Shown: piece by piece, positions 43,742 to 64,000 of the stretch
How the letters are laid out: each line of letters starts with the position of its first letter
Numbering within the stretch: the first letter of the stretch is position 1
Assembly: GCF_025526975.1 (NCBI RefSeq)
Contig: NW_026515695.1
Span: 124,001 to 188,000 of the forward strand
DNA length: 64,000 bases
Source: Fimicolochytrium jonesii
Lineage: Eukaryota
Direction: 5' to 3'
The notes under the pieces: model-generated
Databases searched by the model: none
Seen by the model: only the letters and a program-made list of their open reading frames with translations
Told to the model about the DNA's origin: nothing
Program-made: the position numbers and the translations under genes

Positions 43742-46700
43742 CTACATACGGAAAACACCAAACTGGGTCTCGTTAACCGGCTTGCTCAGTGCCGCGCTCA
43801 GACCGAGTCCGAGCACATCGCGGGTGGAGGAGGGGGTGATGATTCCGTCGTCCCACAATCGTGCGCTGGTGGAGAGGGAGAGTGACGTGTGGGCTGATGT
43901 GAGTACGATGGGAGTGCGGTGTCAACGCTGCAGGTTGACTGAGAAAGGGCCGCTTACCTGGCGAAGTAGGGGTGTCCTTCAGACTCGTATCGCTCCCGGA
44001 TAGGTTTCTTGAAGGCTTCTTCTTCTTCCACGGCCCACTATCGTTCAAAAGGACATGAATGTCAGAACCGTCGTACCGCTTACCTTTCACGAATGCGTTC
44101 GATTACGCCCATACCTCCTGTCCCTTCTTCGCCTTTGCATCTCGAGTGACTATACGACGAAGGAACGCGTTAACACTCAACGAACAATACCCAACGATGC
44201 AGCATGGATGTAACTTACTCTGCGCCAGAACATTGGAAGCCTGCTCGCCTCCCATTACGCTGATACGGGCTGTGGAAACTCGTTTAGCACTCGACATCCC
44301 TACATACAATTCGCTTTCGCGCTACTTACAGTTGGGCCATGTCCACAAGAAACGAGGGCTGTATGCTCTGCCACACATTCCGTAGTTTCCTGTTTCGCAT
44401 TAAATGAAAGAGCATAAGATAACACTCGGTCATTCTACTCTATGAAAACTAATGGGACAGACCTGCTCCGAAGGATCCTCCACACAAAATCTGCGATGAA
44501 CTTATATTAGTGACCCGTCACGAAGGCGTAGGGAGGTTGCATGAAGCAATGCTTACCGTAAACTTTGGAACATTGGCACAAGCAACGGCGGTTACGAGCT
44601 TGGCACCGTTCTTGGCAATCCCGCCGGCCTCGGCGTTCTTGCCGACCATGAAACCTTAGACACAGAGAGACAATGTCAAATTTGGAGGACCGTCAGGGAA
44701 CGACGAACAGAGGACGCACCAGTAATGTTCTGCAAGAAGACCAACGGAATACCCCGTTTGCTGCACAGTTGCACAAAGTGCGCTCCCTTCAAGGAGGACT
44801 CGGAGAACAGAATTCCGTTGTTCGCGACGATTCCGACAGGGAAGCCGTGGATCCTCGCAAACCCTGTAGTTGAGAAACGATTATCAGCGGAAGTCACCGC
44901 TTGCTTCATCGCGACACGACGACAACACACCAGTGATAAGAGAAGTCCCATAGAACTCCTTGAACTCGCTAAACCGACTCCCATCCACAATCCTTGCAAT
45001 AACCTGTCGAACATCATACGGTTTCCTCAGATTGTCGCCGACAATGCCTCCAATCTCTTCGGGGGAGTACAATGGCGGCTCGGGAGCGGTGAGCGTGACG
45101 CTGGGTTGCTTCTTGTAGTTCAGGTTGGCGACGATTTGGCGGCCGAGGGAGAGGGCGTGCGCGTCGGAGTGGGCGTAGTAGTCTGTGACGCCGGAGGTCT
45201 GGAAATTTGAAAAGAGAGTGTGAGGATGATGTTTTCGTTCGGCGAAAGATGGGTGATGTGTACCTTGCAGTGGAGATCGGCACCACCGAGTTCTTCGGCG
45301 GAGATGACTTCTCCCGTTGCAGCTTTCACAAGCTATGGGGTAAACACAATATCAGCAATCCGTGGAGGGTCAGCAGGAGCGGTCCGGAGTACTTACCGGC
45401 GGCCCGGCGAGGAAAATAGTTCCCTGGTTCTTGACAATCACACTCTCATCTGAAAGTCTTCATAGTCAGTAATGATCATGCGATGCCGAAAATGGCTACT
45501 TGACTGACCAGCCATCGCTGGCACATATGCTCCTCCAGCAGTACAGGACCCGAGGACAATCGCGACCTGGGGAATACCAGCTCCTGACATGGTCGCCTGA
45601 TTGTAGAAGATTCTTCCGAAATGCTCTTTGTCCGGGAACACATCCGCCTGTCTCGGCAGGTTGGCACCTCCGGAATCGACTGCAAGGCGAGGATTAGACA
45701 CGGGTGTTCGATGGCCAGAGCCACGTCGCAAACGAAAGGCATACCTAAGTAGATACAAGGCAACTTGTTTTCCCTTGCAATCTCTTGTGCACGCAAGTGC
45801 TTTTTCACAGTAATCTGGCGATATCAAGGGCGTCAATCACACAGGGACTGTCTGAGCGTAATCGAAGGTATGCTGCGTACAGGATAGTAGGTTCCTCCCT
45901 TGACAGTGGAATCTGGGTTCATCATTGATCGCGAATCAGGAGGCTGTCTAACTCTGATTCATTGCGAAAAAAGCCATACCGTTTGCCACAATGACGCATT
46001 CCACTCTGAAAAAGCGATATCGGTCAACCTTAGGTTCCGACAGGACCAGCTTTTGTATCCCTATGATGCTCATACCCGCTGACCCGCCCGATTCCCGTGA
46101 TGATTCCTCCTGCCGGAACGTCATCCTCATACAGCTTGTATCCTGTCATGCGGATGCATTAGCACCGTCCCAGTTCGATCGCCACTCATCACTGTCCTAC
46201 AACATACCAGCAAATTGTGAGAGTTCGAGGAATGGCGATCTGCGTTGAAAATGTCAGCCAAGCAAGCCTCGTTTGCCATAACGTAGATGGATGACTCGCG
46301 CATACCCGGGATCTATGAGGGCGTCGACTCTGTCGCGTGGTAGAAGCTTCTTCCGGGAGAGGTGGCGTTTCCGTGCTTCTAGTCCGCCTCCTGCCAAATC
46401 CCAGAAAGATTGATTAGACCAGGCAGCAAGCTCTTCGTCGAGAAGCGCCATTCATACCTTGCTTTATCTTATCGACATCCTCCCTAAGCTGCTTCACCAA
46501 CTGATCTTGGGCCGCTGCGTTTTCCTGAACGAAATCGAGAACCATCGCGTCACTAATTAGCTACTGCGCAGAGCCCTTCTCACTTCGGGAAACCCACCTT
46601 GAACTCGTCGGAGTGGATGTCAACAGTGTTTTCGATGACCTGTCCGATGGAAGACAAGCTAGCGAAAGTCCTCCTCCCAGAGCTGCATAGGACTTGCGAG

Positions 46701-46780
46701 CTTCTCATTGGTTGTTGGGCAAGCGCATTGTTGGCACGCAGGAGGGTCCTGCTGGACAAGACGAGCTTTGAGCGAAACAT
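43742..46780 (-). CDS. MCCC2: 3-methylcrotonyl-CoA carboxylase beta subunit (many exons)
   Basis: [92 protein letters not shown]-terminal FGVFRM*. Confidence 0.93.
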
Positions 46781-47643
46781 GCTGGGCTGTCGTCGCGAAA
46801 GGTGAGGTCGAAATGTCTCTACGTGCGAACAGGATGTCCAAACTCCAAGGCGTAGGAAACCACTTTTCAAGCAGCTTTGGGGAAACTCTGGTGGAATTGG
46901 AACTGACTTGCACCAGACGCGCTCGTGACTGATCAGTGACGGGTTGGACGTGGAAAGGACCACCCTGTCAATTTACGCTGGGGCGGAAACTTCAAGTCGA
47001 CGGATGACGACGAACGATACTGTATATAGAGTATATGTTGGACTGTGCCCTTGGAAGCTGATTGTCACATAAGTGTGATTAGTTGGAACCTACAATATCT
47101 CGGAATGCCTTTTCCCCCGTCTCTTCCTAGCCATTCATCGCTTTTCCCTGCTCCATCTCTTACATTGATGGCTCCATATGAAACGCTTATGCTTGCCAAT
47201 GAAACCGACTTGCACCCGACCATTACATACAGGAACAGGTGAACATCATACTCTCGAGTTGCGTGCGGTGACTGCTGCGAAAGATGCCCATCCGCTACTC
47301 TTTCAGTCTGTCCAGGTGTGGTTGAGCCGAGGGGGCCGTCCGTCAGAAGTGGAAGTGTCGGTGGTAAATGAGAGACGCGCTCGAGGGTCAGCTGCCGTCC
47401 TCACGAGCATCATCACGTTCGCTCGCTGGGAAACATTCTGCAAAACAAGACATTGGCCTCAGCACGGTTCTCGGTTTACAGCTTTGACATCGGCAAAAGG
47501 AGCTTGCCATCGGGTAGCCAGCATACCTCACTCGAGTCGCTCGTGGAAAACTTCACAGGTGAGCATAGCATAGGGACGACCGCTGGTTCCTGCCGCTCTG
47601 AGATACTAAGGCCATCCGGTGATTCCCCAGACCTTCATCCAAG

Positions 47644-50515
47644 ATGTTAGGGCAGCTTCAGTTCCGATCTGCGGCCGCAACCGCTAAGGCGCTTCACGGA
47701 CTTTCTCAGGCTCAACGCACCCAGTCTGCTGTTGCCGCTACGGCATGCTCGGCACAACGAGCAACAGGCCGAAGGGCAGTCGCGACCTCGACCGACTATG
47801 GCAAGGTACGTTACGACCGCGCATTGTAGCGTTATGGAGACGTGCCCAATAGACTTATTGATATGTTCTGTACAGACTTTCGACAAGATCTTGATTGCCA
47901 ACAGAGGAGAGATTGCATGTCGTGTTATCAAAACTGGTACTGACAGCTGGTTCTTATGCTGTGCGCGAATAAAGAAGGCGTGAGAACTCACCCACTCCGT
48001 GACTCCCAGCTAAAAAGATGGGGATCAAAACGGTCGCCATCTACTCCGAAGCCGATGCGAACTCGCTTCATGTGCGCCTAGCAGACGAGGCAGTCTTTGT
48101 GGTCAGTCACGGATACGCACGACTTTTTATGGCCGCATGCTGCTCACTTATCGGAAATTAGGGACCGCCACCTACGAGCAAAAGTTACCTCAATATTCCC
48201 AACATCCTCGGAGCTATCAAGCAAACCGGCGCGCAGGCTGTTCACCCTGGTTACGGATTCCTGTCAGAAAACAGTCAATTTGTCAAGGCTCTTGATGGCG
48301 TCGGAGCGACTTTCATTGGACCGAACGAGTCTGCTATGGCTGCTATGGGAGACAAGATCCAGAGTAAAATCATTGCACACGAAGCCAAGGTCAACACCAT
48401 TCCTGGTTTTAACGGAGTCGTGAAGGACGCCGAACATGCGGTCGAGATTTGTATGCATACTCCTTGTTTGCGAACGATCATTCGCGCATTACGATAGACT
48501 GACAGCGTTGACCATTCACAGCGAGATCCATCGGCTATCCTGTCATGATCAAGGCTTCCGCTGGCGGAGGTGGAAAAGGAATGCGAATCGCTTGGAACGA
48601 CAACGAAGCACGCGACGCTTTCAAGATCTCGTCGTCCGAAGCTCTGTCCAGTTTCGGAGATGACCGTCTCCTTGTGGAGAAGTTCGTTGAGGACCCGCGT
48701 CACATTGAGATCCAGCTGATCGGAGACAAGCATGGCAACGTCGTACGTAGACGGCATCACATTTTAGCGCATGATTTCCTGTGATCGCTCATGTAGTGAT
48801 TCCGTAATTTCAGATCTACCTGCCAGAACGTGAATGCTCCATTCAGAGGCGGAACCAGAAGGTCATTGAGGAGGCACCTAGTGTTCACATTGACGAGGCG
48901 ACACGCAAAGCGATGGGTGAACAAGCTGTTGCATTGGCGAAGAATGTAGGATACTACTCGGCCGGTATGTAGTTCGTCGTCGTCGGAGCACCAATGGGAG
49001 CGGCAATTCACAGGACGCCTCACCACAGGTACCTGCGAGTTCTTGGTGGACCCGAAGCGGAACTTCTATTTCCTGGAAATGAACACTAGATTACAAGTGT
49101 GGGTGGCGAGTAGTAGCTACTCCTCGTCTTCAACTTGGCTACCATCCGAAAACTCATTCCGACCTTTCAATCCTCAGAGAGCACCCGATCACCGAATACA
49201 TCACAGGCTTAGATCTCGTAGAGCAGATGATCCGGGTCGCCGCGAACCAGAAGTTGAACTTCAAGCAGTCGGACGTGAAAATCAAAGGTTGGGCCTTCGA
49301 GTCCCGCGTGTACGCCGAGGACCCCGAAAAGTACCTCCCATCCATTGGTACGCTCAACAAGTACATTGAGCCCAAGGCGATCAAGGACGAGATTCGCTGC
49401 GACTCTGGAATCGTGGAGGGAAGTGAGATTAGCATTTACTACGATCCTCTGATCTGCAAGCTTTGCACGCATGCACCTACTCGTGCTGAGGCTATCACTA
49501 CCATGGAGAAGGCGCTTGATACCTACGTGATCAAAGGTAGGAGCGTATTGTGTGATTGAAGCCCTACTCAACCGGAGACTAACCTTTCTCTTGTTCTATC
49601 CCACTTAAGGTGTCACACACAACGTCCCGCTTCTCCGCGACGTATACTCTCACCCCCGGTTCCAATCCGGAAAGATTTCCACCGCGTTCCTGGCAGAAGA
49701 ATATCCCAAAGGATTCAAGGGTCACAAACTCACGGAAGAATCCAGCGAAGAGCTGGTCGCCATCTCCGCCGTCATTCACTCCCTCCGCGACGCCCGCAAG
49801 CGCGGATGGGTGCAAGGCGGCGGCTCCTTCGCCGACAACCGCGTCGGCACACCCGTCGCAAAGTCCGATTGGTCGTTCTTTGTCGGCATTGGCGAGAACG
49901 CCACCCAGAAAGCGGACGTCAAGAAAGTAAGCGACGGCACGTACACTGTTGCCATTGATGGAAAGGCGCCCGTCACTGTGTCGAACCTTGAGTGGGTGCT
50001 GGAGAGCCCTATCATCCATGCGCACGTCAAGGGAGCGAAGGGGGCTGCGCGACCCGTCACGATGCAGTATTTGGAGACGGATGCTTCGGGATACAAGTTG
50101 CAGCACTATGGCACGAAGGTATACTAAACTCATGCGTTTTCCTCCTCATCTTCATAACCGTCATGACCATCCTAACACCACCTCTCCCCACCAGTTCTCC
50201 GTCCGCCTCCAAACCCCGCTCCAAAACCAGCTCTCCATCCACATGAAACCCAAGCCCAAGATCGACACAACCCGCATGATCCTCGCCCCCATGCCCGGCA
50301 CCGTCGTCTCCGTCGCCGTGAAAGTCGGCGACCTTGTCGCAGAAGGGTCCGAGCTCGCCGTCGTCGAGGCGATGAAGATGCAAAACGTGCTTCGCGCGCC
50401 GAGGGCGGGGACTATCAAGGGCGTTTATGTGAAGGCGGGAGAGAGTGTGGGTGGGGATGAGGTTATGATTGAGTTTGCGGGGGATGCGGCGAAGACCGTG
50501 AAGAAGAGTGCGTGA
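47644..50515 (+). CDS. PCCA: Propionyl-CoA carboxylase alpha subunit (biotin carboxylase + BCCP; many exons)
   Basis: [21 protein letters not shown]-type [82 protein letters not shown]; biotinyl motif EAMKM. Confidence 0.85.
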
Positions 50516-50692
50516 GGAGTGACTGAGATAGCATAGGTAGATCACACTCCACAGTTCTTTCAACATCTCAAGCGTTAGTGTGGCGTTGGACTAGAATATC
50601 TCATCTGAGGATCCCCCAATCATAGGCGAAGAACACTTTGTAGAGGACTTGATGTTTCGTCGCTCTTCTTCTCTTTCATATGATCCAAAAAC

Positions 50693-52009
50693 ATGCATGT
50701 TTACATCTTGAGGAATGGATTGCCGATTTACATATATCTGGATAGCACACCTGAATGCATCAGGAAGGAATGTTTCGATGGTGAGCACCTGCTCGCTACT
50801 GCTGCTTTCCGCGAGTTTCCTGAGGATGCCTTCCGCAGCGTGAAAGTTCTTCTGGAAAAAGGCTTTGTGGATGCGACACGGTTCGATGTCAGTTGCTTGA
50901 TGTATGTACCGGAGTGCAGCTGGCAAACGGTCGCTTCTCGGCTGGAATCACCATTTTGGATGCGATTCACGCCGCCACTGGACGGTGAGCCACATTTATC
51001 TCTAGTTGGTGAGCCAGACCTCTTGAGATACAAATGTATACTTCGGCATTGACTCTTAGAGCAGCGGCAATATCTCAAAGAAATGGCGCACATGATTCTG
51101 AAAGCTTCGGGAAGCATCAACGAACTAGACGTTTTCAGAGTGACAAATGAAGCCACTCAAGAAGCTTGCTGCGAATTTTTGCACTACAATACCGCAGCCT
51201 ACGATAGGCTTGCCCGTGTCTATCTTCTCAAAATGGCGGAAATACCGCCCGAGTGGGTCCGGAAGCGCGTGTCGCAAGGCTTCTCTATTGGTGGGTCGCA
51301 CCTAAAATACATCCTCAAAAATTGGCTATGTCGCCTGCCGACCGGGCTGGACGGGTTCACCAACTGTGACGAGGCCGACACGGCGTATATCGACGACCAT
51401 CCCATGATCTGGCTACTGAACGTGATACCATCTTCGCGATTGTTTCTGCGTAAGTTTCGTGACTATGGCTACGACGGGCTTCTCCCGGTCGTTCTGCATG
51501 CCGGCCTGAGATTCGAGCTAAAGGACGTGTGCGCATTTTTTGAGAAACGACCCCTGGCTTTCCTCAAAGACCTTCTCGGGGCGGACGAAAGCTGCTTTTT
51601 TCGCGACTCGGACGGTCTGCTCCCTTTTGATCCGCGCAAGGGGCCAGCGCTCTATGAAGCGGCGTTGGCACGGAGCGGACCTTGCGGGCGTAGTAAGCCA
51701 GACGTCCTCAGGCTCTTGGCGGAGGACGTTCGGGTGATACCGTCTGAGGAGAACATATCCGGTGTTGCTCGGTTGCTGTTACCACGTACTGTGCGAACCA
51801 TGCTGGACATTGCCCGTGACAGCTTACCACGAGACGATTTTGCGGAGATGCTTGCCTCTCTGGCTTCTTGCTGGGATGACGCGAACACTTTGGTTGCTCA
51901 GGTGGAGGGAGACTTTGACCCGTTGTTGAAGAGGCACGCGGCCACAAGGATGGTTAGAGTCTTTGCGGACCGCCAAAGGGAAGCACGCCAAGCTGATGGG
52001 AGCCTTTGA
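50693..52009 (+). pseudogene. Uncharacterised intronless gene split by one in-frame stop
   Basis: ORFs 50693-51052 and 51083-52009 are in the same frame, separated only by TGA at 51050-51052; helical-repeat-like composition; no family recognised. Confidence 0.45.
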
Positions 52010-52602
52010 CGCGAGCTTTGGAACCAAGAAAATGCATGGTGTTGGGCAGGGCAGGTTCCCACCCGACATATCATCTATTCCAACGTCCACCGATGGGACT
52101 TTCGTTCACCATCTGGATATTGTGAGCGATCGCGAGCCGCCTTGCTTCCTGCTGGGCTTCTACCATGCAGCATGTAAATTTGATTCGGGGCGGTCGTCAC
52201 TTCACGTCTCAATGGCGACTACGGGCTTCCACCATGCAGGCAACGACCCGTTTGGCAAGGTCAAGCTCCAACCTTGGTCGCTTCGAGCCAGCGCAAATCT
52301 ACAAACGCTCATGGTACACATCTACGAGACGCGACGTATGAGCCATTGGCACCATAGAGCTTGACTAGCGGTTCGTGGGCAAATATAGATCTTGCTAGTC
52401 ATATATCGTAGTTTGTGTTACTTTCCATTTGTCATATATCCTTACACCCGCACGTCAATGCTAAACATGGATTGGCGAGCCCTTGGCCACAGTCGGTTGG
52501 GTTGAGGGTTATAGCTACTTAGCCCACAAACCGGCGGATGCTGTTATCATTCACAAGCATGTCGCAACTCTGCGGGAGCGCGGCTGCGGGAGCGGGAGAC
52601 AT

Positions 52603-52790
52603 GGGCAGGTAGTTATTAACTTATGTGTCATTCTCGAGAGGCTAGCGGACCAGATTGCTCTACTTTGGGAACAATCTGGTGGTATGCGGCCGTGGTGCCG
52701 ATTCTGTACAAATAATCTACCTGCGTTATAAGTTACAAGTTGCCATCATCGGCGACGCCTCAGGCAGAGATACAATGATGTGGATGGCAG
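52603..52790 (-). ncRNA. Candidate Fanzor omegaRNA scaffold / transposon right end
   Basis: Immediately downstream of the Fanzor stop. Enclosing stem 52711-52724/52605-52617; 12-bp hairpin 52669-52680/52649-52660, perfect only on the minus strand (G.U); crossing pair 52728-52735/52617-52624; hairpin 52773-52780/52744-52751, also minus-strand G.U. Confidence 0.6.
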
Positions 52791-52828
52791 ATAACCACCA
52801 CGGAAAATGGGATGGGGTGAAATCTAGA

Positions 52829-53818
52829 CTACCTACGGTTACGGGAGAATGCGTCTGGTCTGCGGCCATTGCCAAACACCACCGAACGCACAATCGAGAG
52901 GAAATTCTTGGTGCTCAGGACGTCCCGATTGTGCACTCTCATCCATAGTCGTAGTGGTCGTCTTCCAGGAATCTCAAATGGCGTCCAGTCTTGGTTGATA
53001 CATTCGGGGTTGGGGCAACCCACCAATCCATGGACGTATTCCATTCTTCCCTTTCTAGCTTGCCATGGCCGAGATGACAGCCGGCGTCGGATGTTTTTCT
53101 TCACACGCCCGTGGCAGTCTGGGCACACCGAAGACGTTCGATACTCATCTAGCAAGTAGCATGGAATGCTGTTCCTTGCAAAGAGTGTGTGGAATCTGAT
53201 TTCCCCCCATGAGTGAGCGTATTATAATACATAAAAAACAATGACGGTCACTCACCCTTTGGTCTTTGATGACTCCTGAAAGCGCATGGTTTTTCCAGCG
53301 TCGCTCCAATCACCCAAGATGACCAAAAAATGCTTTCCATACAGCCGTCGCATGTTCTTGATGAGCTTGCTCTCAGACTTTTGCCGCAGTGAGAACGCCT
53401 TGAATCTGCAAGCCACGTGAATCTCATCCTGGTAAAACTCATCCAGGGCGGGATCTGGGATATGAATGTGAGCCCATGTATTACCAAATTTGAAAATCAA
53501 AGAAGTAGAACATCATACCCGCATGTTCGTAATCCACGATGAACGCTGAGAACGCCTCGATGTTCATGCTCTTGTGCGATGGAATATGTGCTTCCATCTC
53601 AGCGATGCCCGCATTGATCTTTCGCTCTGTCATGTCTCTTTGAAAGTACCGAGACTTTGTCTCGACCGCACGTTGATTGGATGTGTATCTGATATGGGGT
53701 GGTGCATTGTGAGGACGCTGCAACGGAATGTCGCCGCAACGGGGATGGCGGAGACAGGGGGCTGGCGGGCGGAGACGGGGGGCTGGCGGGTGGAGACGGG
53801 GGGATGGCGGGCGGAGAC
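52829..53818 (-). CDS. Fanzor (TnpB-derived RNA-guided nuclease), 3' half with two introns, interrupted upstream by an LTR retrotransposon
   Basis: Removing GT-AG introns 53455-53518 and 53196-53255 gives a continuous frame: IRYTSNQRAVETK...FY...LVILGDWS...KG...YLLDEYRTSSVCPDC...VHGLVGCPNPEC...HNRDVLSTKN...RPDAFSR (RuvC-II Glu, Zn finger, RuvC-III Asp). RuvC-I is not in the window. Confidence 0.88.
53746..53818. repeat. 21-bp minisatellite, ~3.5 copies (GGCGGAGACGGGGGGCTGGCG-like)
   Basis: Direct tandem copies abutting the LTR; in the Fanzor frame they read RLRPPAP repeats. Confidence 0.85.
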
Positions 53819-54355
53819 TGTTATGGACGACGCGCCCATACCATAAGCTTACCTACTGACAGCCGCCAATGTCAACCGCCAAATGTCAAACGCCAATGTC
53901 AATGTCAATGTCAGTGTCAATGTCAGTGTCAATGTCAATGTCAATGCCACTCCCCCTCTCTCCTCTCATTTCGCCAATCCTGTTGCAATATCGCCACTCC
54001 GCCTCTGTCCTCTCATTTCCCCAATTCCCCCTCGGCTCCTCCACACCCCCCACTGCTTCCTCATAGCCAGCAGCTGTAGCAATGCTCTCTACGCTCGCCA
54101 CGCACCTCCAGGAGCATAGCTGGCGCCCCCCAGTCCCCTCTTGTTGTTGTTGTTCTCTGATCTGCTGGGTTGCCTATCTATAAATAGCCGGCCTCTCTTT
54201 GTCCATTCCCTTCCTCCCCAGCAGATCAACCCCAGTTCTTCTCATCTCCTGTTCTAGTCCTTGTTTCTTGTTTCGCCAATAGAATCTCTTGTCGCCTATC
54301 ACACTCGCCCTGTCTTCTCTACTTCGCTTCTGCCCCCGTCGTCGAGATCATAACA
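53819..54355 (+). repeat. 5' LTR of element A (537 bp)
   Basis: TGTTATG...CATAACA perfect 7-bp terminal inverted repeats; TATAAA at 54179; (TGTCAA/TGTCAG)n microsatellite at ~53890-53946; followed by GTTTGATCTGCT. Confidence 0.92.
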
Positions 54356-54424
54356 GTTTGATCTGCTCCAACACTGCGAAGTTCAGAACCTGTCCAGCCC
54401 TGCATCCGACAAACCTTTTTCGCC

Positions 54425-55415
54425 ATGTCCCAACCCGAATCCGTACCTTTCACCGCCAAGCAATGGAACGATATGTGCCAAGCCATCGCCGCCTTGCAAA
54501 GCCAAAACACCAACTTGCAGGCCAACCTAGCGCAAGCCCAAGCCGACGCACAAGCTGCCCAGAGCATCGCCGCCCAGGTTCAAGCCGATACGTACACCCG
54601 TCCCCAAGTCGCCAACCCTGCTCTGGAACCAAGAATCAGCTCGCCCGAGAAGTTTGATGGTACCCGCAGCAAATTCCGTTGGTGGTTGAACAACATCCGG
54701 TTGATGTTTGCTCTCCAGCCTGACCGCTACCCCAGCAACATCATCAAGATCCAAACTATTGGCACCTACCTCACCGGCACTGCGCAAGCCTGGATGGCGC
54801 CCCTAGTCGAACGCCAAGATCACAGCCTTCAGGACTTCAATAGTTTTATCAGCCAGATGCAATCGGTCTTCGGAGACAGCGACAGGGTCGGCACCTCTAA
54901 AAACAAGCTCCAGAACCACCCGTGCAGCAACCGAGTACGTTGCTGAGTTCTGCCAGCTACAATGCGATGTCTCCTGGAACGACCAGGCCCTGATTGCTAC
55001 CTTCCGCCGTGGCCTCAAAGAAGACGTCAAAGACCTGATGCTCACAATGCCCCCTGCGGCCACCATTGATGTGGTGATGGAGCAGGCTATCCAGTGCGAT
55101 AACCGGCAGTTTGAGCGCCGCCTGGAGCGAAACAGAAGCCGCCAGACCTTCCCGGTTCCCCACACCTCGTTTACTACTACCACCACTGTCGACCACAGCG
55201 AGCCTATGCAGATTGACGCCGCTCGTCCCCGCGGCCCTCTGAGCCCTCAGGAACGCCAACGCCGCATTTCCAACAACCTCTGCCTTTACTGCGGTGGCGC
55301 GGGGCACATTGCAAAAGTCTGCCCCGTCAAGAACAAGACCACCACCCGTGCCGCCAACGTCGACATCAAAGAACCCTCCACCGAACAGGGTTTTCCCAAA
55401 GTCCAGCCGCAGTAA
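54425..55415 (+). pseudogene. Element A gag (retrotransposon capsid + CCHC knuckle), frameshifted
   Basis: PEKFDGTRSKFR...; an 8-nt deletion at ~54917 relative to family-B gag shifts the frame; CLYCGGAGHIAKVC. Confidence 0.9.
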
Positions 55416-58184
55416 AGCCCCAGCGACTGGACAACACACACCGCCCCGGGCCTCCTAACCTTGCAGCTCCTGCAACGGGAGAGGCCACCCCCCTGGTTCC
55501 CGACTCCGTTATAGCCGACACAACCCTCCTAGCCGCTGCCCATGTCGAAAACCCCGAAATTAACCCCCGCGCCATGCTTGCGCTGGGTCCCGTCGAACCC
55601 TTCAACTACCCCGTTACCATCATGGTATCATCCAGCCGCGCCCCAATACCTACCTCAGCCATGATCGACAACGGTGCCCTGTCCTGCTTCATCGACAGAG
55701 ACATTGCCCGCAAACACCGCATCGCCCTAGTCCCGCATCAGCGTCCACTGACGATCGAACTCGTTGACGGTCAACCCAGCTCTGCTGGGCCAATCACCCA
55801 TCACACCCAACCACTAGGCATGTGGGTCGACGACCACTTCGAAGAACTCGTCTTCCATGTCACCAAATCACCCCATGCTCCAATCCTCCTTGGTCTCCCC
55901 TGGCTCCGCCTCCACGACATTAACCTTGACTTCAAGAACCTTTCGGTCGGTTTCCGTTGCGACTGTCAGTACCATGAATTCGCAAATTGGGACAACTCTC
56001 CAGCACCCCCGAGCCCAGCACCCGCCAGAACCCCCGAGCCCTTGATCCGCATTCCCCAGGATGAAGTCCCCGTCGACGAAACATGGTCGATTCCAGTACC
56101 CAAGGTAGCTCGCTCCAGCACCCCAGAACCGGCTCCCACGCCGCTCCGAGTCTCGTTCATCTCCGCCCCAGCCTTCCGGGTCGCAGCAAGGCATGACCAG
56201 GTCTTTGTCGCCTACGCCAACCCTGCGAAACCCAATCTCCCGGCCTCGCCTAGCCCCAGTAACCCCCTGACACCCGAGAAAGACATCAAAGACTTCCTGC
56301 CCCCCGAGTATCAAGACTTCGCCGACGTTTTCGAAAAGAGAAATGCTGACACTCTCCCCGAGCACCGGCCCTACGACTGTCCAATCGATCTGGAAAAAGG
56401 CAAGCAGCCACCTTTCGGCCCGATCTACAGCCTCAGCGAACCAGAAATGAAGGCACTCTGCGAATCTCGAAGAAAACCTCGCCAAAGGATTCATCAAACC
56501 CTCAAAGTCCCCTGCCGGTGCGCCAGTCTTATTTGTGAAGAAAAAGGACGGTTCTCTCCGCCTCTGCGTGGATTATCAAGGCCTGAACAACATCACGGTG
56601 AAGAATCGCTACCCCCTGCCCCTGATCAATGGTATCATGGATCGTTTGCGCGGCGCCCGCCGCCTCACCAAGATCGACCTCCGCGGCGCTTATAACCTCT
56701 TACGCATGCGCCCGGGCGATGAATGGAAGACCGCCTTCCGCTGCCGCTACGGCCTATTCGAATACAATGTCATGCCCTTTGGACTCAGCAATGCTCCTGG
56801 CGTCTTCCAGTACCTGATGAACGACATCTTCTGCGACATTCTCGATGTGTTTGTTGTCGTCTACCTCGACGATATCCTGATATTCTCCAAGAACCCCGAA
56901 GATCACCCCAAACATGTCCGCGAAGTCTTGTCCCACCTCCGACAGCATGGGTTGTACGCCAAACCAGAGAAGTGCGAATTCAATCGCGAATCCGTTGAGT
57001 TCCTAGGCTTCCTCATCTCCGAGAAAGGCATCCAGATGGACCCCAAGAAGATCGCTGCCATCACGGATTGGGAACCTCCCAAGACTGTCGAAGGCGTCCA
57101 GCGGTTCCTCGGCTTTGCCAACTTCTATCGCCGATTCATCCAAGGTTATTCCAAGATCTCTACCCCGCTCACAGCCCTGACCCGGAAAGACATCCTGTAC
57201 GCCTGGACACCCGCCGCAAACACCGCCTTCGAGAACCTGAAGAAAGCATTCACCACCGCCCCCATCCTTGCTCATCCTGACCCAGAGAAGCCCTTCGTCG
57301 TCGAAACTGACGCCTCCGACTTCGCTCTTGGCGCAGTTCTCCTCCAACCTGACCAGGACAATCAGCTCCACCCCGTGGCCTTCCACTCTCGCAAATTCAC
57401 GGCCGAAGAGATCAACTACAAGATCTACGACAAGGAACTTCTGGCCATCCAAGACTCCTTTGCCCAGTGACGACACCATCTCATTGGCGCCCGTCACAAG
57501 ATCACCGTTTACTCCGACCATAAAAGCCTTCAGTACTTCATGACCACCCGCACCCTGAACCGCCGCCAAGCCCGCTGGTCGATATTCTTCTCGGATTTTG
57601 ACTTTGTCATTACCTATCGCCCCGGTTCCCAGCAGCACCAAGCCGATGCCCTCTCCCGACGCTCCGAACATGAGCTAAAAAAGGGGGAAGAAGCGTTCCG
57701 CTCCCAGGCAACCACAATTTTGACTCCCGAACGCCTTCGACTCGCCGCGGCCTACCTCACACCCATGGATACCACGCTGCTTGACAAGATTAAGGCCGCC
57801 CAGGCTTCTGATCCCCTCGCTAAGACCATTCGCAAAAAGCTCAAGATACCCCTCGCCCAACGAACCGAGGAAACCCAAGATCGTATCAAGCGGTTCTCAG
57901 ATGAAGATGGGATCCTGCTGCACGATAACCTGGTCTATGTCCCCAGCAACGAGCTCTGAGCTGAAGTCTGCCACGACATGCACGATACACCCCTAGCCGG
58001 CCACTTTGGGATGTCCAAGACGCTCGAACTCGCCTCCCGCAACTACTGGTGGCCCAGCGAGTGGCGCTTCGTCAAGGCCTACGTCAAGTCCTGCGATACC
58101 TGTAGCCAAGCGAAATCCAGTCGACACAAACCATATGGCCTACTCCAGCCCAACAGTATCCCTACCCGCCCTTGGGGATCTTGG
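55388..58184 (+). pseudogene. Element A pol (protease-RT-RNase H-partial integrase), disrupted
   Basis: Protease IDNGA; RT LRLCVDY...KIDLRGAY...MPFGL...YLDD (56862-56873); RNase H ETDAS...YDKELLAI; integrase H..HD..AGH...CDTC. Frameshift at ~56465 and TGA stops at 57468 and 57957. Confidence 0.93.
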
Positions 58185-58714
58185 TGTTATGGACGACGCG
58201 TCCATACCATGCGCTTACCTCATGACAGCATCCCAACAGTCAGTCAATGTCAATTCCCTGTCAAAACCTGACATCTGCCAAACCTCGCAGCCGCACGCAG
58301 CCGCGCTACCCCACACCTGCCACTGCCTTCATTTCTCCACGCAGCCGCACGTAGCCACACCTCCCAACACTCGGCGCTCACAAACCCTTCTCCATACTTC
58401 CCCACGTACCCGCCCACAGCCTCAGCGTAGCCACCCCATCCCCAGTCTTCTGTTTCTATGCTTCCCCACCCTTGGCGCTTCTCTTGGCTTCCCTCTCATT
58501 CCGTACCCTTCTGCTTCCCCACGCTTCCCCAGCCTTCCCAGAAAAACATAAACAGCCGCCTCCCCTGAGCTCCCCACTTCCTGATCCCCCAGCAGATCGA
58601 CACCAGTTCTTCCTAGTCTTGTTCTAGTTCTTGTTTCGGTCTGAATACCATTACCTGTCAACAACCTGCACCACAAGTCGCCTCTATTTCCATCGGCTCC
58701 GCCCATTCATAACA
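58185..58714 (+). repeat. LTR B copy 1 (530 bp)
   Basis: TGTTATG...CATAACA; shares ends and R-region motif with LTR A. Confidence 0.93.
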
Positions 58715-58765
58715 GTTTGATCTGCTCAACAACCCCCAGCCGCTGTACCTCCACGCCAAATCACC

Positions 58766-59692
58766 ATGTCCGACGCCCTTCCCCTCACGGCCGAAGCCTG
58801 GCAAGCCATGTGCAATGCGATTGACGAACTTCGAGCGCAGAATACCACCCTACAAGCCGAACTAGCGCAAACCCAGACCACTGCCCCTGCCACCCACGCC
58901 CCCGAACCCAAAATCAGTCTCCCAGACAAATTTGATGGCACCCGAAGCAAGTTCCGTGGGTTCCTCAACCAGATCCGGCTCATGTTCGCCCTCCAACCCA
59001 GGCGCTACCCCAACGATCAGACCAAGATACGAACTATTGGCACCTACCTCACTGGCACCGCCCAGGCCTGGCTGGCGCCCCTTGTCGAACAAGACCATCA
59101 TTCCCTTACGAACCTGGATGATTTCATCCAGCAAATGCAAGCAGCCTTTGGAGACAGTGACAGGATCCGCACGTCCGAAAACAAGCTCCAGAACCTTCGA
59201 CAAACCCGTGCAGCAACAGAGTATGTAGCTGAATTCCGACAGCTGCAATGCGATGTGTCGTGGAATGACCAGGCATTGATTGCCACCTTCCGTCGCGGCC
59301 TCAAAGAAGACGTCAAGGACTTAATGCTCACGATGCCCCCTACCGCCTCAATCGACACCGTGATGGAACAGGCCATCCAATGTGACAACCGATTGTTTGA
59401 GCGCCGTCTAGAGCAAAGCAGGAACCGACAGCCATATGTGCCAGTTACCACTAGCCCCACCCTCATGAGCCCCGACAACCGCCCAGACGACCCTATGATC
59501 ATTGACGCTGCTCGTCCGCGAGGACCCCTCACACCGCTAGAGCGCCAACACCGCATCACAAACAAACTTTGCCTCTACTGTGGTAAACCCGGCCACATAG
59601 CCAAACTCTGCCCGAACAAGATACGCACGGCGAATGTCGCGGTTAAGGAACCTGCACCCATCCAGGATTTTGCCCAAGTCCAGCTGCAGTAA
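58766..59692 (+). CDS. Gag, unit B1 (308 aa, intact)
   Basis: Retrotransposon gag domain PDKFDG...QTRAATEYVAEF...FRRGL and zinc knuckle CLYCGKPGHIAKLC. Confidence 0.92.
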   Translation: MSDALPLTAEAWQAMCNAIDELRAQNTTLQAELAQTQTTAPATHAPEPKISLPDKFDGTRSKFRGFLNQIRLMFALQPRRYPNDQTKIRTIGTYLTGTAQAWLAPLVEQDHHSLTNLDDFIQQMQAAFGDSDRIRTSENKLQNLRQTRAATEYVAEFRQLQCDVSWNDQALIATFRRGLKEDVKDLMLTMPPTASIDTVMEQAIQCDNRLFERRLEQSRNRQPYVPVTTSPTLMSPDNRPDDPMIIDAARPRGPLTPLERQHRITNKLCLYCGKPGHIAKLCPNKIRTANVAVKEPAPIQDFAQVQLQ

Positions 59693-60605
59693 AGGCCGAG
59701 CAGCTGGGCAACACCTGTCCTGGGCCTTCTCACCACGCAGTACTGCCAAGGGAGAAGCCACAATACCTTGCTCCAATCCTGGCATCTCCAGCAACACCCT
59801 TCTCCTGACCACCAACAATGTCAATCTCCTATCTGAGATACCCTCACCCATGCGGACTTTGGGCCCATCCTCACCATTCGAGTACCCTGTTACCCTGCAG
59901 ATATCGGCCCAGCGAGCTCCAGTTCAGCTTTCAGCACTACTCGACACCGGTGCGATGTCGTGCTTCATCGACGAAAGTTATGCCCGCAAGCACCGCATCC
60001 CACTTGTCAAGAAGGAGGACCCCATTGCGCTTGAACTGGTTGACGGACGTCCCAGCCATGCGGGCTCCATTACCCATCACACCCAACCTTTGGGCATGTG
60101 GGTCAACGACCATTTTGAGGAGGTGGTATTCCATGTGACATGTTCCCCGCATGCGCCAATCATCCTGGGGCTTCCCTGGTTTGAGCTCCATGATGTGGAG
60201 CTACATTGGAAGACTTCGCACTCTTTGCGTCCGCTGCCATTGCGGTTTTGGACAATACGCCTCCTGGGATGCCCTGCCAACAGAACCTAGCCCGAAGCCC
60301 TCAAGAACCCCTGAACCTCTGATCCGTATCCATCAAGACGAGATTTCAGTCTCCCTAGCCCAGACACCCAACACACTGGACCCAGCACCCACACCGATCC
60401 ACGTATCGTTTATCAGCGCCCCAGCTTTCCGTGTGGCAGGCAAGGCATGACCAGGCATTCATTGCCTACGCCAATCCGACCAAGTCAGATTCCCAAGCCC
60501 TGGCGACCACTCCTCCAAAAGATCCGAAGGCCATCATTCCTGAAGAATACCAAGATTTTGCGGACGTCTTCACCAAGAAGAACGCGGATACCCTCCCAGA
60601 GCACC

Positions 60606-61135
60606 TGTTATGGACGACGCGTCCATACCATGCGCTTACCTCATGACAGCATCCCAACAGTCAGTCAATGTCAATTCCCTGTCAAAACCTGACATCTGCC
60701 AAACCTCGCAGCCGCACGCAGCCGCGCTACCCCACACCTGCCACTGCCTTTATTTCTCCACGCAGCCGCACGTAGCCACACCTCCCAACACTAGGCGCTT
60801 ACAAACCCTTCTCCATACTTCCCCACGTACCCGCCCACAGCCTCAGCGTAGCCACCCCATCCCCAGTCTTCTGTTTCTATGCTTCCCCACCCTTGGCGCT
60901 TCTCTTGGCTTCCCTCTCATTCCGTACCCTTCTGCTTCCCCACGCTTCCCCAGCCTTCCCAGAAAAACATAAATAGCCGCCTCCCCTGAGCTCCCCACTT
61001 CCTGATCCCCCAGCAGATCAACACCAGTTCTTCCTAGTCTTGTTCTAGTTCTTGTTTCGGTCTGAATACCATTACCTGTCAACAACCTGCACCACAAGTC
61101 GCCTCTATTTCCATTGGCTCCGCCCATTCATAACA
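60606..61135 (+). repeat. LTR B copy 2 (530 bp)
   Basis: Direct repeat of 58185-58714 with a few substitutions. Confidence 0.93.
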
Positions 61136-61186
61136 GTTTGATCTGCTCAACAACCCCCAGCCGCTGTACCTCCACGCCAAATCACC

Positions 61187-62113
61187 ATGTCCGACGCCCT
61201 TCCCCTCACGGCCGAAGCCTGGCAAGCCATGTGCAATGCGATTGACGAACTTCGAGCGCAGAATACCACCCTACAAGCCGAACTAGCGCAAACCCAGACC
61301 ACTGCCCCTGCCACCCACGCCCCCGAACCCAAAATCAGTCTCCCAGACAAATTTGATGGCACCCGAAGCAAGTTCCGTGGGTTCCTCAACCAGATCCGGC
61401 TCATTTTCGCCCTCCAACCCAGGCGCTACCCCAACGATCAGACCAAGATACGAACTATTGGCACCTACCTCACTGGCACCGCCCAGGCCTGGCTGGCGCC
61501 CCTTGTCGAACAAGACCATGATTCCCTTACGAACCTGGATGATTTCATCCAGCAAATGCAAGCAGTCTTTGGAGACAGCGACAGGATCCGCACGTCCGAA
61601 AACAAGCTCCAGAATCTTCGACAAACCCGTGCAGCAACAGAGTATGTAGCTGAATTCCGACAGCTGCAATGCGATGTGTCGTGGAATGACCAGGCATTGA
61701 TTGCCACCTTCCGTCGCGGCCTCAAAGAAGACGTCAAGGACTTAATGCTCACGATGCCCCCTACCGCCTCAATCGACACCGTGATGGAACAGGCCATCCA
61801 ATGTGACAACCAATTGTTTGAGCGCCGTCTAGAGCGAAGCAGGAACCGACAGCCATATGTGCCAGTTACCACTAGCCCCACCCTCATGAGCCCCGACAAC
61901 CGCCCAGACGACCCTATGATCATTGACGCTGCTCGTCCGCGAGGACCCCTCACACCGCTAGAGCGCCAACACCGCATCACAAACAAACTTTGCCTCTACT
62001 GTGGTAAACCCGGCCACATAGCCAAACTCTGCCCGAACAAGATACGCACGGCGAATGTCGCGGTTAAGGAACTTGCACCCATCCAGGATTTTGCCCAAGT
62101 CCAGCTGCAGTAA
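61187..62113 (+). CDS. Gag, unit B2 (308 aa, intact)
   Basis: Near-identical to B1 Gag; six amino-acid differences visible in the ORF track. Confidence 0.92.
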   Translation: MSDALPLTAEAWQAMCNAIDELRAQNTTLQAELAQTQTTAPATHAPEPKISLPDKFDGTRSKFRGFLNQIRLIFALQPRRYPNDQTKIRTIGTYLTGTAQAWLAPLVEQDHDSLTNLDDFIQQMQAVFGDSDRIRTSENKLQNLRQTRAATEYVAEFRQLQCDVSWNDQALIATFRRGLKEDVKDLMLTMPPTASIDTVMEQAIQCDNQLFERRLERSRNRQPYVPVTTSPTLMSPDNRPDDPMIIDAARPRGPLTPLERQHRITNKLCLYCGKPGHIAKLCPNKIRTANVAVKELAPIQDFAQVQLQ

Positions 62114-62270
62114 AGGCCGAGCAGCTGGGCAACACCTGTCCTGGGCCTTCTCACCACGCAGTACTGCCAAGGGAGAAGCCACAATACCTTGCTCCAATCC
62201 TGGCATCTCCAGCAACACCCTTCTCCTGACCACCAACAATGTCAATCTCCTATCTGAGATACCCTCACCC

Positions 62271-63024
62271 ATGCGGACTTTGGGCCCATCCTCACCATTC
62301 GAGTACCCTGTTACCCTGCAGATATCGGCCCAGCGAGCTCCAGTTCAGCTTTCAGCACTACTCGACACCGGTGCGATGTCGTGCTTCATTGACGAAAGTT
62401 ATGCCCGCAAGCACCGCATCCCACTTGTCAAGAAGGAGGACCCCATTGCGCTTGAACTGGTTGACGGACGTCCCAGCCATGCGGGCTCCATTACCCATCA
62501 CACCCAACCTTTGGGCATGTGGGTCAACGACCATTTTGAGGAGGTGGTATTCCATGTGACATGTTCCCCGCATGCGCCAATCATCCTGGGGCTTCCCTGG
62601 TTTGAGCTCCATGATGTGGAGCTACATTGGAAGATTCGCACTCTTTGCGTCCGCTGCCATTGCGGTTTTGGACAATACGCCTCCTGGGATGCCCTGCCAA
62701 CAGAACCTAGCCCGAAGCCCTCAAGAACCCCTGAACCTCTGATCCGTATCCATCAAGACGAGATTTCAGTCTCCCTAGCCCAGACACCCAACACACTGGA
62801 CCCAGCACCCACACCGATCCACGTATCGTTTATCAGCGCCCCAGCTTTCCGTGTGGCAGCAAGGCATGACCAGGCATTCATTGCCTACGCCAATCCGACC
62901 AAGTCAGATTCCCAAGCCCTGGCGACCACTCCTCCAAAAGATCCGAAGGCCATCATTCCTGAAGAATACCAAGATTTTGCGGACGTCTTCACCAAGAAGA
63001 ACGCGGATACCCTCCCAGAGCACC
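62271..63024 (+). pseudogene. Aspartic protease / truncated pol of unit B2 (B1 equivalent at 59850-60605 has two extra 1-nt insertions)
   Basis: LLDTGA catalytic motif, IILGLPW; ends at LPEH where the next LTR begins. Confidence 0.85.
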
Positions 63025-63554
63025 TGTTATGGACGACGCGTCCATACCATGCGCTTACCTCATGACAGCATCCCAACAGTCAGTCAATGTCAATTCCCTG
63101 TCAAAACCTGACATCTGCCAAACCTCGCAGCCGCACGCAGCCGCGCTACCCCACACCTGCCACTGCCTTTATTTCTCCACGCAGCCGCACGTAGCCACAC
63201 CTCCCAACACTAGGCGCTTACAAACCCTTCTCCATACTTCCCCACGTACCCGCCCACAGCCTCAGCGTAGCCACCCCATCCCCAGTCTTCTGTTTCTATG
63301 CTTCCCCACCCTTGGCGCTTCTCTTGGCTTCCCTCTCATTCCGTACCCTTCTGCTTCCCCACGCTTCCCCAGCCTTCCCAGAAAAACATAAATAGCCGCC
63401 TCCCCTGAGCTCCCCACTTCCTGATCCCCCAGCAGATCAACACCAGTTCTTCCTAGTCTTGTTCTAGTTCTTGTTTCGGTCTGAATACCATTACCTGTCA
63501 ACAACCTGCACCACAAGTCGCCTCTATTTCCATTGGCTCCGCCCATTCATAACA
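63025..63554 (+). repeat. LTR B copy 3 (530 bp)
   Basis: Appears identical to copy 2. Confidence 0.93.
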
Positions 63555-63605
63555 GTTTGATCTGCTCAACAACCCCCAGCCGCTGTACCTCCACGCCAAA
63601 TCACC

Positions 63606-64000
63606 ATGTCCGACGCCCTTCCCCTCACGGCCGAAGCCTGGCAAGCCATGTGCAATGCGATTGACGAACTTCGAGCGCAGAATACCACCCTACAAGCCGA
63701 ACTAGCGCAAACCCAGACCACTGCCCCTGCCACCCACGCCCCCGAACCCAAAATCAGTCTCCCAGACAAATTTGATGGCACCCGAAGCAAGTTCCGTGGG
63801 TTCCTCAACCAGATCCGGCTCATTTTCGCCCTCCAACCCAGGCGCTACCCCAACGATCAGACCAAGATACGAACTATTGGCACCTACCTCACTGGCACCG
63901 CCCAGGCCTGGCTGGCGCCCCTTGTCGAACAAGACCATGATTCCCTTACGAACCTGGATGATTTCATCCAGCAAATGCAAGCAGTCTTTGGAGACAGCGA
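63606..64000 (+). CDS. Gag, unit B3 (runs off window)
   Basis: Same start and sequence as B2 gag. Confidence 0.9.
   Translation, partial: MSDALPLTAEAWQAMCNAIDELRAQNTTLQAELAQTQTTAPATHAPEPKISLPDKFDGTRSKFRGFLNQIRLIFALQPRRYPNDQTKIRTIGTYLTGTAQAWLAPLVEQDHDSLTNLDDFIQQMQAVFGDS

What the first reader, a model, noticed from the sequence alone, without database searches (positions are those of the whole stretch)
52829..53818. Hidden intron-containing Fanzor (eukaryotic OMEGA RNA-guided nuclease)
Seen: three small minus-strand ORFs join into one stop-free 256-aa frame from 53723 when two canonical introns are removed. Intron 53455-53518 is GTATGA...GCTCAC...CAG and intron 53196-53255 is GTGAGT...GCTCAC...CAG. 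The product has RYTSNQR..ETK, VILGDWS, DEYRTS-x2-CPDC, HGLVGC-x4-C and NRD-x5-N. Established: this RuvC-II Glu / zinc finger / RuvC-III Asp layout characterises TnpB/Fanzor, and Fanzor1 occurs in chytrids and Mucoromycota. Inference: a spliced, host-adapted Fanzor1 that was intact until an LTR element landed upstream. Its N-terminus and RuvC-I Asp should lie beyond the nested retroelements, right of this window.
Basis: partly seen in the sequence, partly recalled or inferred. Interest (0 to 1): 0.88.

Follow-up and report, generated by a model that had tools for sequence, protein, structure and literature searches.

The report
Broken chytrid Fanzor transposon copy
This is the back half of a Fanzor RNA-guided nuclease gene in a chytrid fungus, with two predicted introns; it is one of dozens of near-identical copies, is cut off from its front half by nested retrotransposons, is likely dead as a nuclease, and its protein already appears in a published list of Fanzor candidates.

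Summary
Both introns are at the stated coordinates and removing them gives a stop-free frame. The product is identical over 226 aa to the public Fimicolochytrium jonesii model KAI8817407.1, which is already in a published table of putative Fanzors (PMC10711439 Table S2). It is a Fanzor1 with 53% identity to SpuFz1.

The RuvC-I Asp is absent from the window. The gene is a transposon-like family (at least 53 models, 87-96% identical, with CpG-type decay), not a domesticated gene.

New here: a candidate omegaRNA at 52808-52680, and three intron positions absent from the related loci that cover them (8, 6 and 8 of 9). Splicing was not shown with RNA, and the 5' half could not be checked. Intron-bearing Fanzors and Ty3 insertions into Fanzor genes are published. 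The scan had only a related note on Spizellomyces ghost elements, none on this locus.

The parts
53689..53818 (-). 3' part of a third Fanzor intron (predicted phase 2, in the R of R|YTSNQR), with a 21-nt GC-rich tandem repeat at 53747-53818, branch-point-like CCTCAC at 53714-53709 and acceptor CAG ending at 53689
   Evidence: Paralogous models P0016 and P0209 retain the same text right after KERPF (tblastn E 1e-14 and 2.5e-12). P0011 retains its last 8 codons. P0002, P0014 and P0261 break at YTSNQR. Tandem repeat.
53519..53688 (-). Fanzor1 exon (YTSNQR...EHA); start of the helical RuvC region after the missing RuvC-I strand
53455..53518 (-). Predicted spliceosomal intron, 64 nt, phase 1
   Evidence: retained in part by models P0002, P0021, P0233
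53256..53454 (-). Fanzor1 exon (DPAL...GDWS...KTKG)
53196..53255 (-). Predicted spliceosomal intron, 60 nt, phase 2
   Evidence: four models start or end their match here
52829..53195 (-). Last Fanzor1 exon: RuvC-II Glu (SpuFz1 E541 position), CCCC zinc finger (C548, C551, C586, C591 positions), RuvC-III Asp (D606 position), stop codon
   Evidence: phmmer to SpuFz1 8gkh E 1.9e-29 and to PpFz1 9cf0 E 2e-9; residue mapping
52680..52808 (-). Candidate omegaRNA scaffold (129 nt) and right end of the element: TTTTCC leader, stem-loop 1 at 52801-52780, end GGCCGCATACCA
   Evidence: Stem-loop 1 z -3.66, 0 of 200 shuffles. Same position and layout as published SpuFz1 omegaRNAs (compared by eye) and as loci L001, L003, L005, L007. 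Whole region does not fold better than shuffles. Inferred, not shown.
52665..52679 (-). Candidate 15-nt guide (flank beyond the inferred right end)
   Evidence: Inference from the SpuFz1 layout; no match beyond chance in the window
53814..53818 (+). GAGAC, candidate left target-site duplication of the first LTR element; it is also part of the 21-nt repeat unit
   Evidence: the right-hand copy lies outside the window and was not seen
53819..58184 (+). LTR retrotransposon 1 (Ty3/gypsy type), antisense to the Fanzor: 5' LTR 53819-54355, then gag, protease, RT, RNase H and integrase zinc domain in six separate ORF pieces
58185..64000 (+). Second LTR family nested in the integrase of element 1: 530-bp LTRs at 58185, 60606 and 63025, each followed by gag (and protease in the two complete units); units of 2421 and 2419 bp
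   Evidence: LTRs at 60606 and 63025 identical, the one at 58185 differs at 6 of 530 positions

Best explanation
The locus is the 3' part of one copy of a multicopy Fanzor1 gene family of the chytrid Fimicolochytrium jonesii, likely carried by a Spu-1-like non-autonomous DNA transposon; a Ty3/gypsy retrotransposon sits antisense inside its predicted third intron, so this copy likely makes no working nuclease. In intact copies a spliced mRNA would give a protein of about 760 aa with a disordered N-terminus and a SpuFz1 fold. It would bind an omegaRNA made from the element's right end plus about 15 nt of flank and cut DNA matching that flank next to a short motif, helping the element persist (inferred from SpuFz1). 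Here the REC and WED domains and the RuvC-I Asp are separated from the rest by more than 10 kb of nested retroelements. I put the odds at about 60% that the 5' half still lies right of the window.
For: Shown: identity with P0210. SpuFz1 hit E 1.9e-29 for the last exon and E 2.7e-122 for paralogue P0002. 123 of 232 aligned residues identical to SpuFz1 (P0022, recognised by D383, N385, E541, D606). AlphaFold model of paralogue P0229: pLDDT 82.8, pTM 0.78, residues 1-127 low confidence; Foldseek top hit SpuFz 9ceu, E 1.6e-50, TM 0.91 on the target. 81 F. jonesii models fetched, 68 match the window product, 53 cover the Glu and CxxC; 32 with at least 200 aligned residues are 87-96% identical; 8 of 81 hold REC, DPG, Glu and Asp motifs together. 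Short end branches (0.013-0.03) in the tree, sister to a Gaertneriomyces protein (SH-aLRT 99, quick tree). Arg at CGN codons deviates in 88 of 942 cells against 4 of 334 at AGR codons, and 78 of the 88 are Q, H, C or W. 5mC is confined to transposons in Spizellomyces (PMC12695648 passage). No tblastn hit for the 5' half elsewhere in the window with 206 proteins at E 1e-4. Ty3 insertions into Fanzor genes are reported in S. punctatus (PMC10432273 passage).
Against: The 244 codons present carry no stop or frameshift and keep all six catalytic and zinc residues in this part. The insertion is in an intron, so the reading frame itself is not cut. No terminal inverted repeat or left end could be seen, so the transposon is inferred from copy number and from SpuFz1. 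The CpG cells are not independent (shared ancestry); the site-level test is 20 of 20 against 4 of 7, p 0.012, and CpG is not depleted in the coding sequence (observed/expected 0.97). The omegaRNA pair count did not beat shuffles. No annotated 5' half was found next to P0210.
Confidence: 0.8

Rival explanations
1. The copy is dead as a protein but is kept as a guide-RNA donor: its omegaRNA is transcribed and loaded in trans by full-length Fanzors from other loci, as proposed for ghost Spu-1 elements.
For: The candidate scaffold keeps the leader and stem-loop 1. 8 of 81 models hold all motifs of a full protein. Ghost loci with omegaRNA and no protein are described in S. punctatus.
Against: No expression data. 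The whole candidate does not fold better than shuffles. Its end reads CA where three related loci read TA. An intact-looking scaffold is also expected in a recently broken copy without selection.
Confidence: 0.1
2. The retroelement nest is spliced out as part of a giant third intron, so the copy still makes full-length active Fanzor.
For: The insertion is inside the intron, antisense, and leaves the branch-point-like motif and acceptor in place. The exons are free of stops.
Against: The intron would exceed 10 kb where the two neighbours are 60 and 64 nt. The copy carries rare substitutions (S33A 0 of 43, R125H 1 of 46, R207W 2 of 39, S100L 3 of 46 paralogous models). No 5' half was found among the models on that contig.
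Confidence: 0.05
3. The annotated 226-aa protein from the Met at 53633 is a real, host-used truncated protein (zinc finger and partial RuvC, no nuclease).
For: The public annotation models it so (P0210), and several paralogous models start at the same Met (P0003, P0006, P0008).
Against: The same start recurs in unrelated copies, as a gene finder would choose when the upstream exon is out of reach. The fragment lacks the first RuvC strand and all guide- and target-binding domains. The family shows a decay pattern.
Confidence: 0.05

Closest known systems
SpuFz1 / Spu-1 element of Spizellomyces punctatus (PMC10432273, PMC3627910; PDB 8gkh, 9ceu)
   Same: 53% identity over the window part and 46% (285 of 617) for paralogue P0229; same fold; same Glu, zinc finger and Asp; multicopy; Ty3 insertions in some copies; similar 3' RNA leader and first stem-loop.
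   Different: SPu-1-1p is a single ORF; this family has at least three introns in its 3' half. It has a Pro-rich disordered N-terminus of about 127 aa with a PRRKRRK-type motif (19 of 81 models). RuvC-I reads DPG rather than DPN (37 of 40 models with the motif matched). The TAM-reading N133 is Ala in P0229, so the motif may differ from CATA. The candidate scaffold is about 129 nt against 75 nt.
Putative Fanzors of Fimicolochytrium jonesii in PMC10711439 Table S2
   Same: The table holds 33 F. jonesii entries, and row 758 is KAI8817407.1, this locus's spliced product.
   Different: It is a list of HMM hits. The main text has no occurrence of 'Fimicolochytrium', 'chytrid', 'intron' or 'LTR', so gene structure, omegaRNA and the insertion are not described there.
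Intron-containing Fanzor1 such as CrFNuc of Chlamydomonas reinhardtii (PMC10530073)
   Same: Introns in a multicopy, transposon-borne Fanzor; the paper reports intron densities up to about 9.6 per kb.
   Different: CrFNuc sits in Helitron2 elements; no transposase was seen beside this copy. The intron positions were not compared.
Gaertneriomyces sp. JEL0708 protein KAJ3177236.1 (P0017)
   Same: Nearest relative outside the species: 56% identity to P0007, sister in the tree.
   Different: Keeps DPN and lacks the long N-terminus; its introns could not be read.

Membership tests
Fanzor (TnpB-family RuvC) | RuvC-II Glu six residues before the zinc finger (rearranged position; PMC10711439 passage) | tested here: met
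   E140 and C147 of the window product align with SpuFz1 E541 and C548; Glu in 53 of 53 aligned paralogues
Fanzor (TnpB-family RuvC) | CCCC zinc finger followed by RuvC-III Asp | tested here: met
   C147, C150, C183, C188, D214 align with C548, C551, C586, C591, D606
Fanzor (TnpB-family RuvC) | RuvC-I Asp in a DPG-type motif, in this copy | tested here: not met
   Absent from the window. Present in the family: DPG in 37 of 40 models with the motif matched. The copy is therefore filed as a broken member, not as a working nuclease.
Fanzor1 | Enlarged REC lobe and overall SpuFz1, PpFz1, GtFz1 fold | tested here: met
   Tested on paralogue P0229, not on this copy: Foldseek ranks 1-7 are Fz1 structures (E 1.6e-50 to 1.1e-18); the next hit, Cas12f, has E 2.6e-5
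Fanzor1 | Eukaryotic genomic context | tested here: met
   GT-AG introns, fungal-type LTR elements, and identity with a named F. jonesii model
Fanzor1 | omegaRNA at the 3' end with conserved stem-loop 1 | tested here: inconclusive
   Hairpin z -3.66 about 20 nt after the stop and layout like SpuFz1; pair count 72% against 69.9% in shuffles; whole region not significant; no Rfam match; no RNA data
Fanzor1 | RNA-guided, TAM-dependent dsDNA cleavage | not testable with these tools
   Needs a biochemical assay on a full-length paralogue
Spu-1-like non-autonomous transposon | About 30-nt terminal inverted repeats and TA target-site duplication | not testable with these tools
   Left end outside the window, no genome held, no second copy in the window; the repeat finder listed no pair that looked like element ends in four related loci
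Spu-1-like non-autonomous transposon | Many dispersed, similar copies | tested here: met
   At least 53 models covering the Glu and CxxC, on many contigs, 87-96% identical
Domesticated (host-adapted) Fanzor | Single or few copies under purifying selection | tested here: not met
   Multicopy with CpG-type substitutions; dN/dS could not be computed without paralogous DNA

The most novel reading that the evidence does not exclude
This Fanzor1 lineage gained its own spliceosomal introns while it was still jumping, and the third intron is itself a foldback or MITE-like insert. None of the three intron sites is interrupted in SpuFz1 or in the related loci that cover them, and paralogous models show the 21-nt repeat of intron 3 in both orientations (C-rich in the window, P0016, P0209; G-rich with the same 7-residue period in P0253). 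That would make a family of dozens of near-identical copies a direct record of intron birth from a transposon inside an RNA-guided nuclease gene, with broken copies still feeding guide RNAs to intact ones.
Probability: 0.2. Interest if true: 0.5.

Novelty: already known. Interest (0 to 1): 0.25.

Why it matters
The locus itself matters little: a broken copy whose protein is already listed as a putative Fanzor. The family is of modest use. It offers a SpuFz1 relative at about 46% identity with a changed TAM-reading residue and a DPG active site, with a candidate omegaRNA now located, so a full-length paralogue such as P0229 could be tested as a new editor. Its lineage-specific introns also give a tractable case of intron gain in a mobile nuclease gene.

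Tried and rejected
No whole genome was held, so paralogous DNA, element ends and the region right of 64000 could not be read. No RNA holder and no run of any kind was listed for 50600-53810; this is no evidence either way. Pfam on the three exon ORFs gave only Cas12f1-like_TNB at E 0.028, below cut-off, on the last exon; seven paralogues also stayed below cut-off. Rfam and ARAGORN found nothing.

The apparent match of window CGDIPLQRP to paralogous CRDIKKERP was rejected as coding sequence, because paralogous models retain the same stretch as intron text in other frames. Paralogue model P0052 runs from a Fanzor 5' part into an LTR like the window's first LTR; it was rejected as this copy's 5' half because it breaks about 175 residues earlier and lies on a contig of another length.

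The alternative long-range pairing GTGGTG/CACCAC predicted for the whole 3' region was not significant. MAFFT misaligned the full 3' regions. The pair count on five stem-loop-1 sequences used a structure string of mine that was out of register for some rows and did not beat shuffles; I did not refit it. An after-the-fact stem-loop descriptor gave 4 hits on both strands of the window, the best at 52806, but missed L001, L002 and L007. The candidate guide has 3 other matches at 3 mismatches in the window, as chance gives (mean 2.25); its 77% complementarity to 55386-55407 is treated as chance. The careful tree did not finish; the quick tree (35 rows, last 300 residues, 309 columns) was used. Searches for a description of this family in print: 'Fimicolochytrium' with 'Fanzor' (the one listed paper with both terms does not link them), 'Fanzor' with 'intron', 'Fanzor' with 'intron gain', 'Spizellomyces punctatus, Fanzor, TIR'.

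Full report
Observation. Intron 53455-53518 and intron 53196-53255 have the stated donors, branch-like motifs and acceptors, and their removal gives a stop-free frame of 256 aa. Both are AT-richer than the exons. Many GT-AG pairs would also open a frame (92 combinations, 4 with strong donors), so homology had to decide. The last exon alone matches SpuFz1 in the PDB at E 1.9e-29 and PpFz1 at E 2e-9. It also finds 13 proteins of Fimicolochytrium jonesii among 163 candidates. One cluster member, P0210 (KAI8817407.1, EV422DRAFT_560649, 226 aa), is identical to residues 19-244 of the spliced product. The public annotation therefore uses the same two introns, and the window very likely comes from this species. 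Of 56 paralogous models aligned, 43 span each junction; 41 are collinear at the first and 43 at the second. These are predictions; no RNA run was listed, so splicing is inferred.

A third intron. Paralogues read KERPFRYTSNQR where the window reads HNAPPHIRYTSNQR. The window has CCTCAC and an acceptor CAG ending at 53689. Models P0016 and P0209 keep, right after KERPF, text that matches 53689-53818 in another frame (E 1e-14 and 2.5e-12), and P0011 keeps its last codons. Five models break at this point against P0229. P0209 retains about 90 codons' worth of it, so the intron is longer than the 130 nt left here.

What interrupts it. An LTR of 537 bp starts at 53819, directly after GAGAC. Gag, protease, RT, RNase H and integrase zinc domains follow in six separate ORF pieces. 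A second LTR family starts at 58185 inside the integrase, with further LTRs at 60606 and 63025. All right ends lie beyond the window. With 206 fetched proteins, tblastn found no Fanzor 5' half in the window. Three of the 81 F. jonesii models lie on a contig of P0210's length (414,560 bp): P0233, P0092 and P0210. None is a 5' half next to P0210. That is weak evidence, because repeats are often unannotated.

The family. I fetched 81 distinct F. jonesii models; 68 match the window product and 53 cover the RuvC-II Glu and first Cys pair, a lower bound on copies. The 32 with at least 200 aligned residues are 87-96% identical to it. Eight hold REC, DPG, Glu and Asp motifs together. P0022 is SpuFz1, since its residues 383, 385, 541 and 606 are D, N, E, D as in PMC10432273. 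The window part is 53% identical to it and keeps the Glu, four Cys and last Asp. The family has DPG where SpuFz1 has DPN; DPG is the usual Fanzor motif (PMC10711439 passage). A model of paralogue P0229 (pLDDT 82.8) matches SpuFz structures at TM 0.89-0.92 on the target. In a quick tree the F. jonesii rows form a short-branched clade, sister to a Gaertneriomyces protein and apart from the Mucoromycota rows. With P0210 and the aberrant P0011 left out, Arg at CGN codons deviates in 88 of 942 cells against 4 of 334 at AGR, mostly to Q, H, C or W. The cells share ancestry; at site level it is 20 of 20 against 4 of 7 (p 0.012). CpG is not depleted overall (0.97), so the decay would be recent. Four of the window's eight differences from the majority would be CpG transitions (inferred from codons). 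This fits methylated transposon copies, as reported for Spizellomyces (PMC12695648 passage), and not a domesticated gene.

The 3' RNA. About 20 nt after the stop the minus strand reads TTTTCC followed by an 8-bp hairpin with one bulge (52801-52780; z -3.66, 0 of 200 shuffles). Published SpuFz1 omegaRNAs begin the same way, with a similar loop (supplementary file 5, part 1 of 2; compared by eye). Four distinct related loci with sequence past the stop show a TCC-type leader and a predicted hairpin there, two of them weak (z -0.29, 0.42, -1.68, -4.00). The window's GGCCGCATACCA at 52691-52680 resembles the ends GGCCGAATACTA, GGCTTAATACTA and GGCTACGCACTA of L001, L003 and L007. Stem-loop 1 is the conserved part of Fz1 omegaRNAs and the rest varies (PMC11423790 passage). 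Against: the whole region folds no better than shuffles, the pair count was not significant, and my descriptor missed three known cases. I rate the omegaRNA as likely (about 75%), with an uncertain 3' boundary.

Introns in relatives. Of 9 metagenome loci (L001 and L002 near-identical), 8, 6 and 8 cover the three window intron sites, and all are continuous there. Several have intron-like inserts elsewhere: after INLR (L001-L004, L006), in GLLG|C (L001-L003) and after KKNK (L004). SPu-1-1p is a single ORF. So the three positions look specific to this lineage. Breaks in paralogous models hint at further introns at KYYL|A, YLG|A and NVN|D. Gain versus loss was not tested on a rooted tree.

Mechanism. 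Shown: the sequence anatomy, the identity with an annotated model, Fanzor1 homology, copy number and the insertion point. Inferred from SpuFz1 (PMC10432273 passages): intact copies make a protein that binds the right-end RNA and cuts DNA matching the flank-derived guide, which would favour the element's persistence. Inferred here: this copy lost that ability when a nest of more than 10 kb came between the RuvC-I exon and the rest. Rivals are a guide donor in trans (0.10), splicing of the whole nest (0.05) and a functional truncated protein (0.05).

What is known. PMC10711439: passages and supplement search; Table S2 lists 33 F. jonesii entries including this protein. PMC10530073: passages report intron capture by Fanzors; its 2 supplementary files gave no hit for Fimicolochytrium, nor for Spizellomyces, so that search says little. 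PMC10432273: passages, one supplement part and a supplement search without hits, with file 2 unreadable and one PDF too large; it reports Ty3 inserted in Fz genes and ghost loci. PMC3627910, PMC11423790, PMC12695648, PMC6317226, PMC12247965: passages only. I found no text describing this family's gene structure (searches); subscription papers are not covered.

Verdict. Real, correctly identified, but ordinary: a broken copy of a multicopy, intron-containing Fanzor1 whose protein is already on a published candidate list. Interest 0.25. The residual value lies in the family's intact paralogues, the candidate omegaRNA and the lineage-specific introns.

Noticed in passing
window 54220-54229 with 54356-54367; 58591 with 58715; 61012 with 61136: The sequence just after each 5' LTR (GTTTGATCTGCT, the same in both LTR families) is complementary over 8-10 nt to a stretch inside the LTR, about 40 nt after a TATA box in the first LTR. 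This suggests Tf1/sushi-type self-priming rather than a tRNA primer (PMC6317226 passage).
   Followed up: partly
window 58185-64000: LTR-gag-protease units of 2421 and 2419 bp, 2404 positions identical, both ending at the same pol position with no purine tract before the next LTR. Likely one nested insertion followed by tandem duplication through unequal crossing-over, or an assembly artefact.
   Followed up: partly
window 53747-53818 and paralogue model P0253: The 21-nt intron-3 repeat appears in the opposite orientation right after KERPF in P0253, hinting at a foldback or invertible insert in this intron. Seen only at protein-model level.
   Followed up: partly
paralogue models P0052, P0043: Other copies also abut mobile elements: P0052 runs into an LTR like the window's first one, and P0043 is fused to a stretch that looks like a tyrosine recombinase (by eye, not searched).
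   Followed up: no
window 52650-52679: A short inverted repeat (8-nt arms, 14-nt spacer) starts exactly at the inferred guide position; it could affect guide folding or mean that the element end lies further out.
   Followed up: no
window 50684-52009 (+): Two adjacent in-frame ORFs (122 and 318 aa) separated by one stop codon, with no Pfam match above cut-off; possibly a broken or misassembled gene.
   Followed up: partly
window 44000-50515: Two divergently arranged intron-rich genes that look like biotin-dependent carboxylase subunits (recognised from motifs by recall, not searched).
   Followed up: no
L001:3183-3257, L001:4519-4590, L003:1233-1287, L003:2576-2638, L004:385-616, L006: Related Fanzor1 loci in metagenomes carry intron-like inserts at other, partly shared positions; database proteins P0039 and P0040 retain one of them in frame.
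   Followed up: partly
clusters 2 and 4 (P0220, P0236, P0240): Three short cluster members are unrelated to the Fanzor family; they were left out of the 81-model count.
   Followed up: yes
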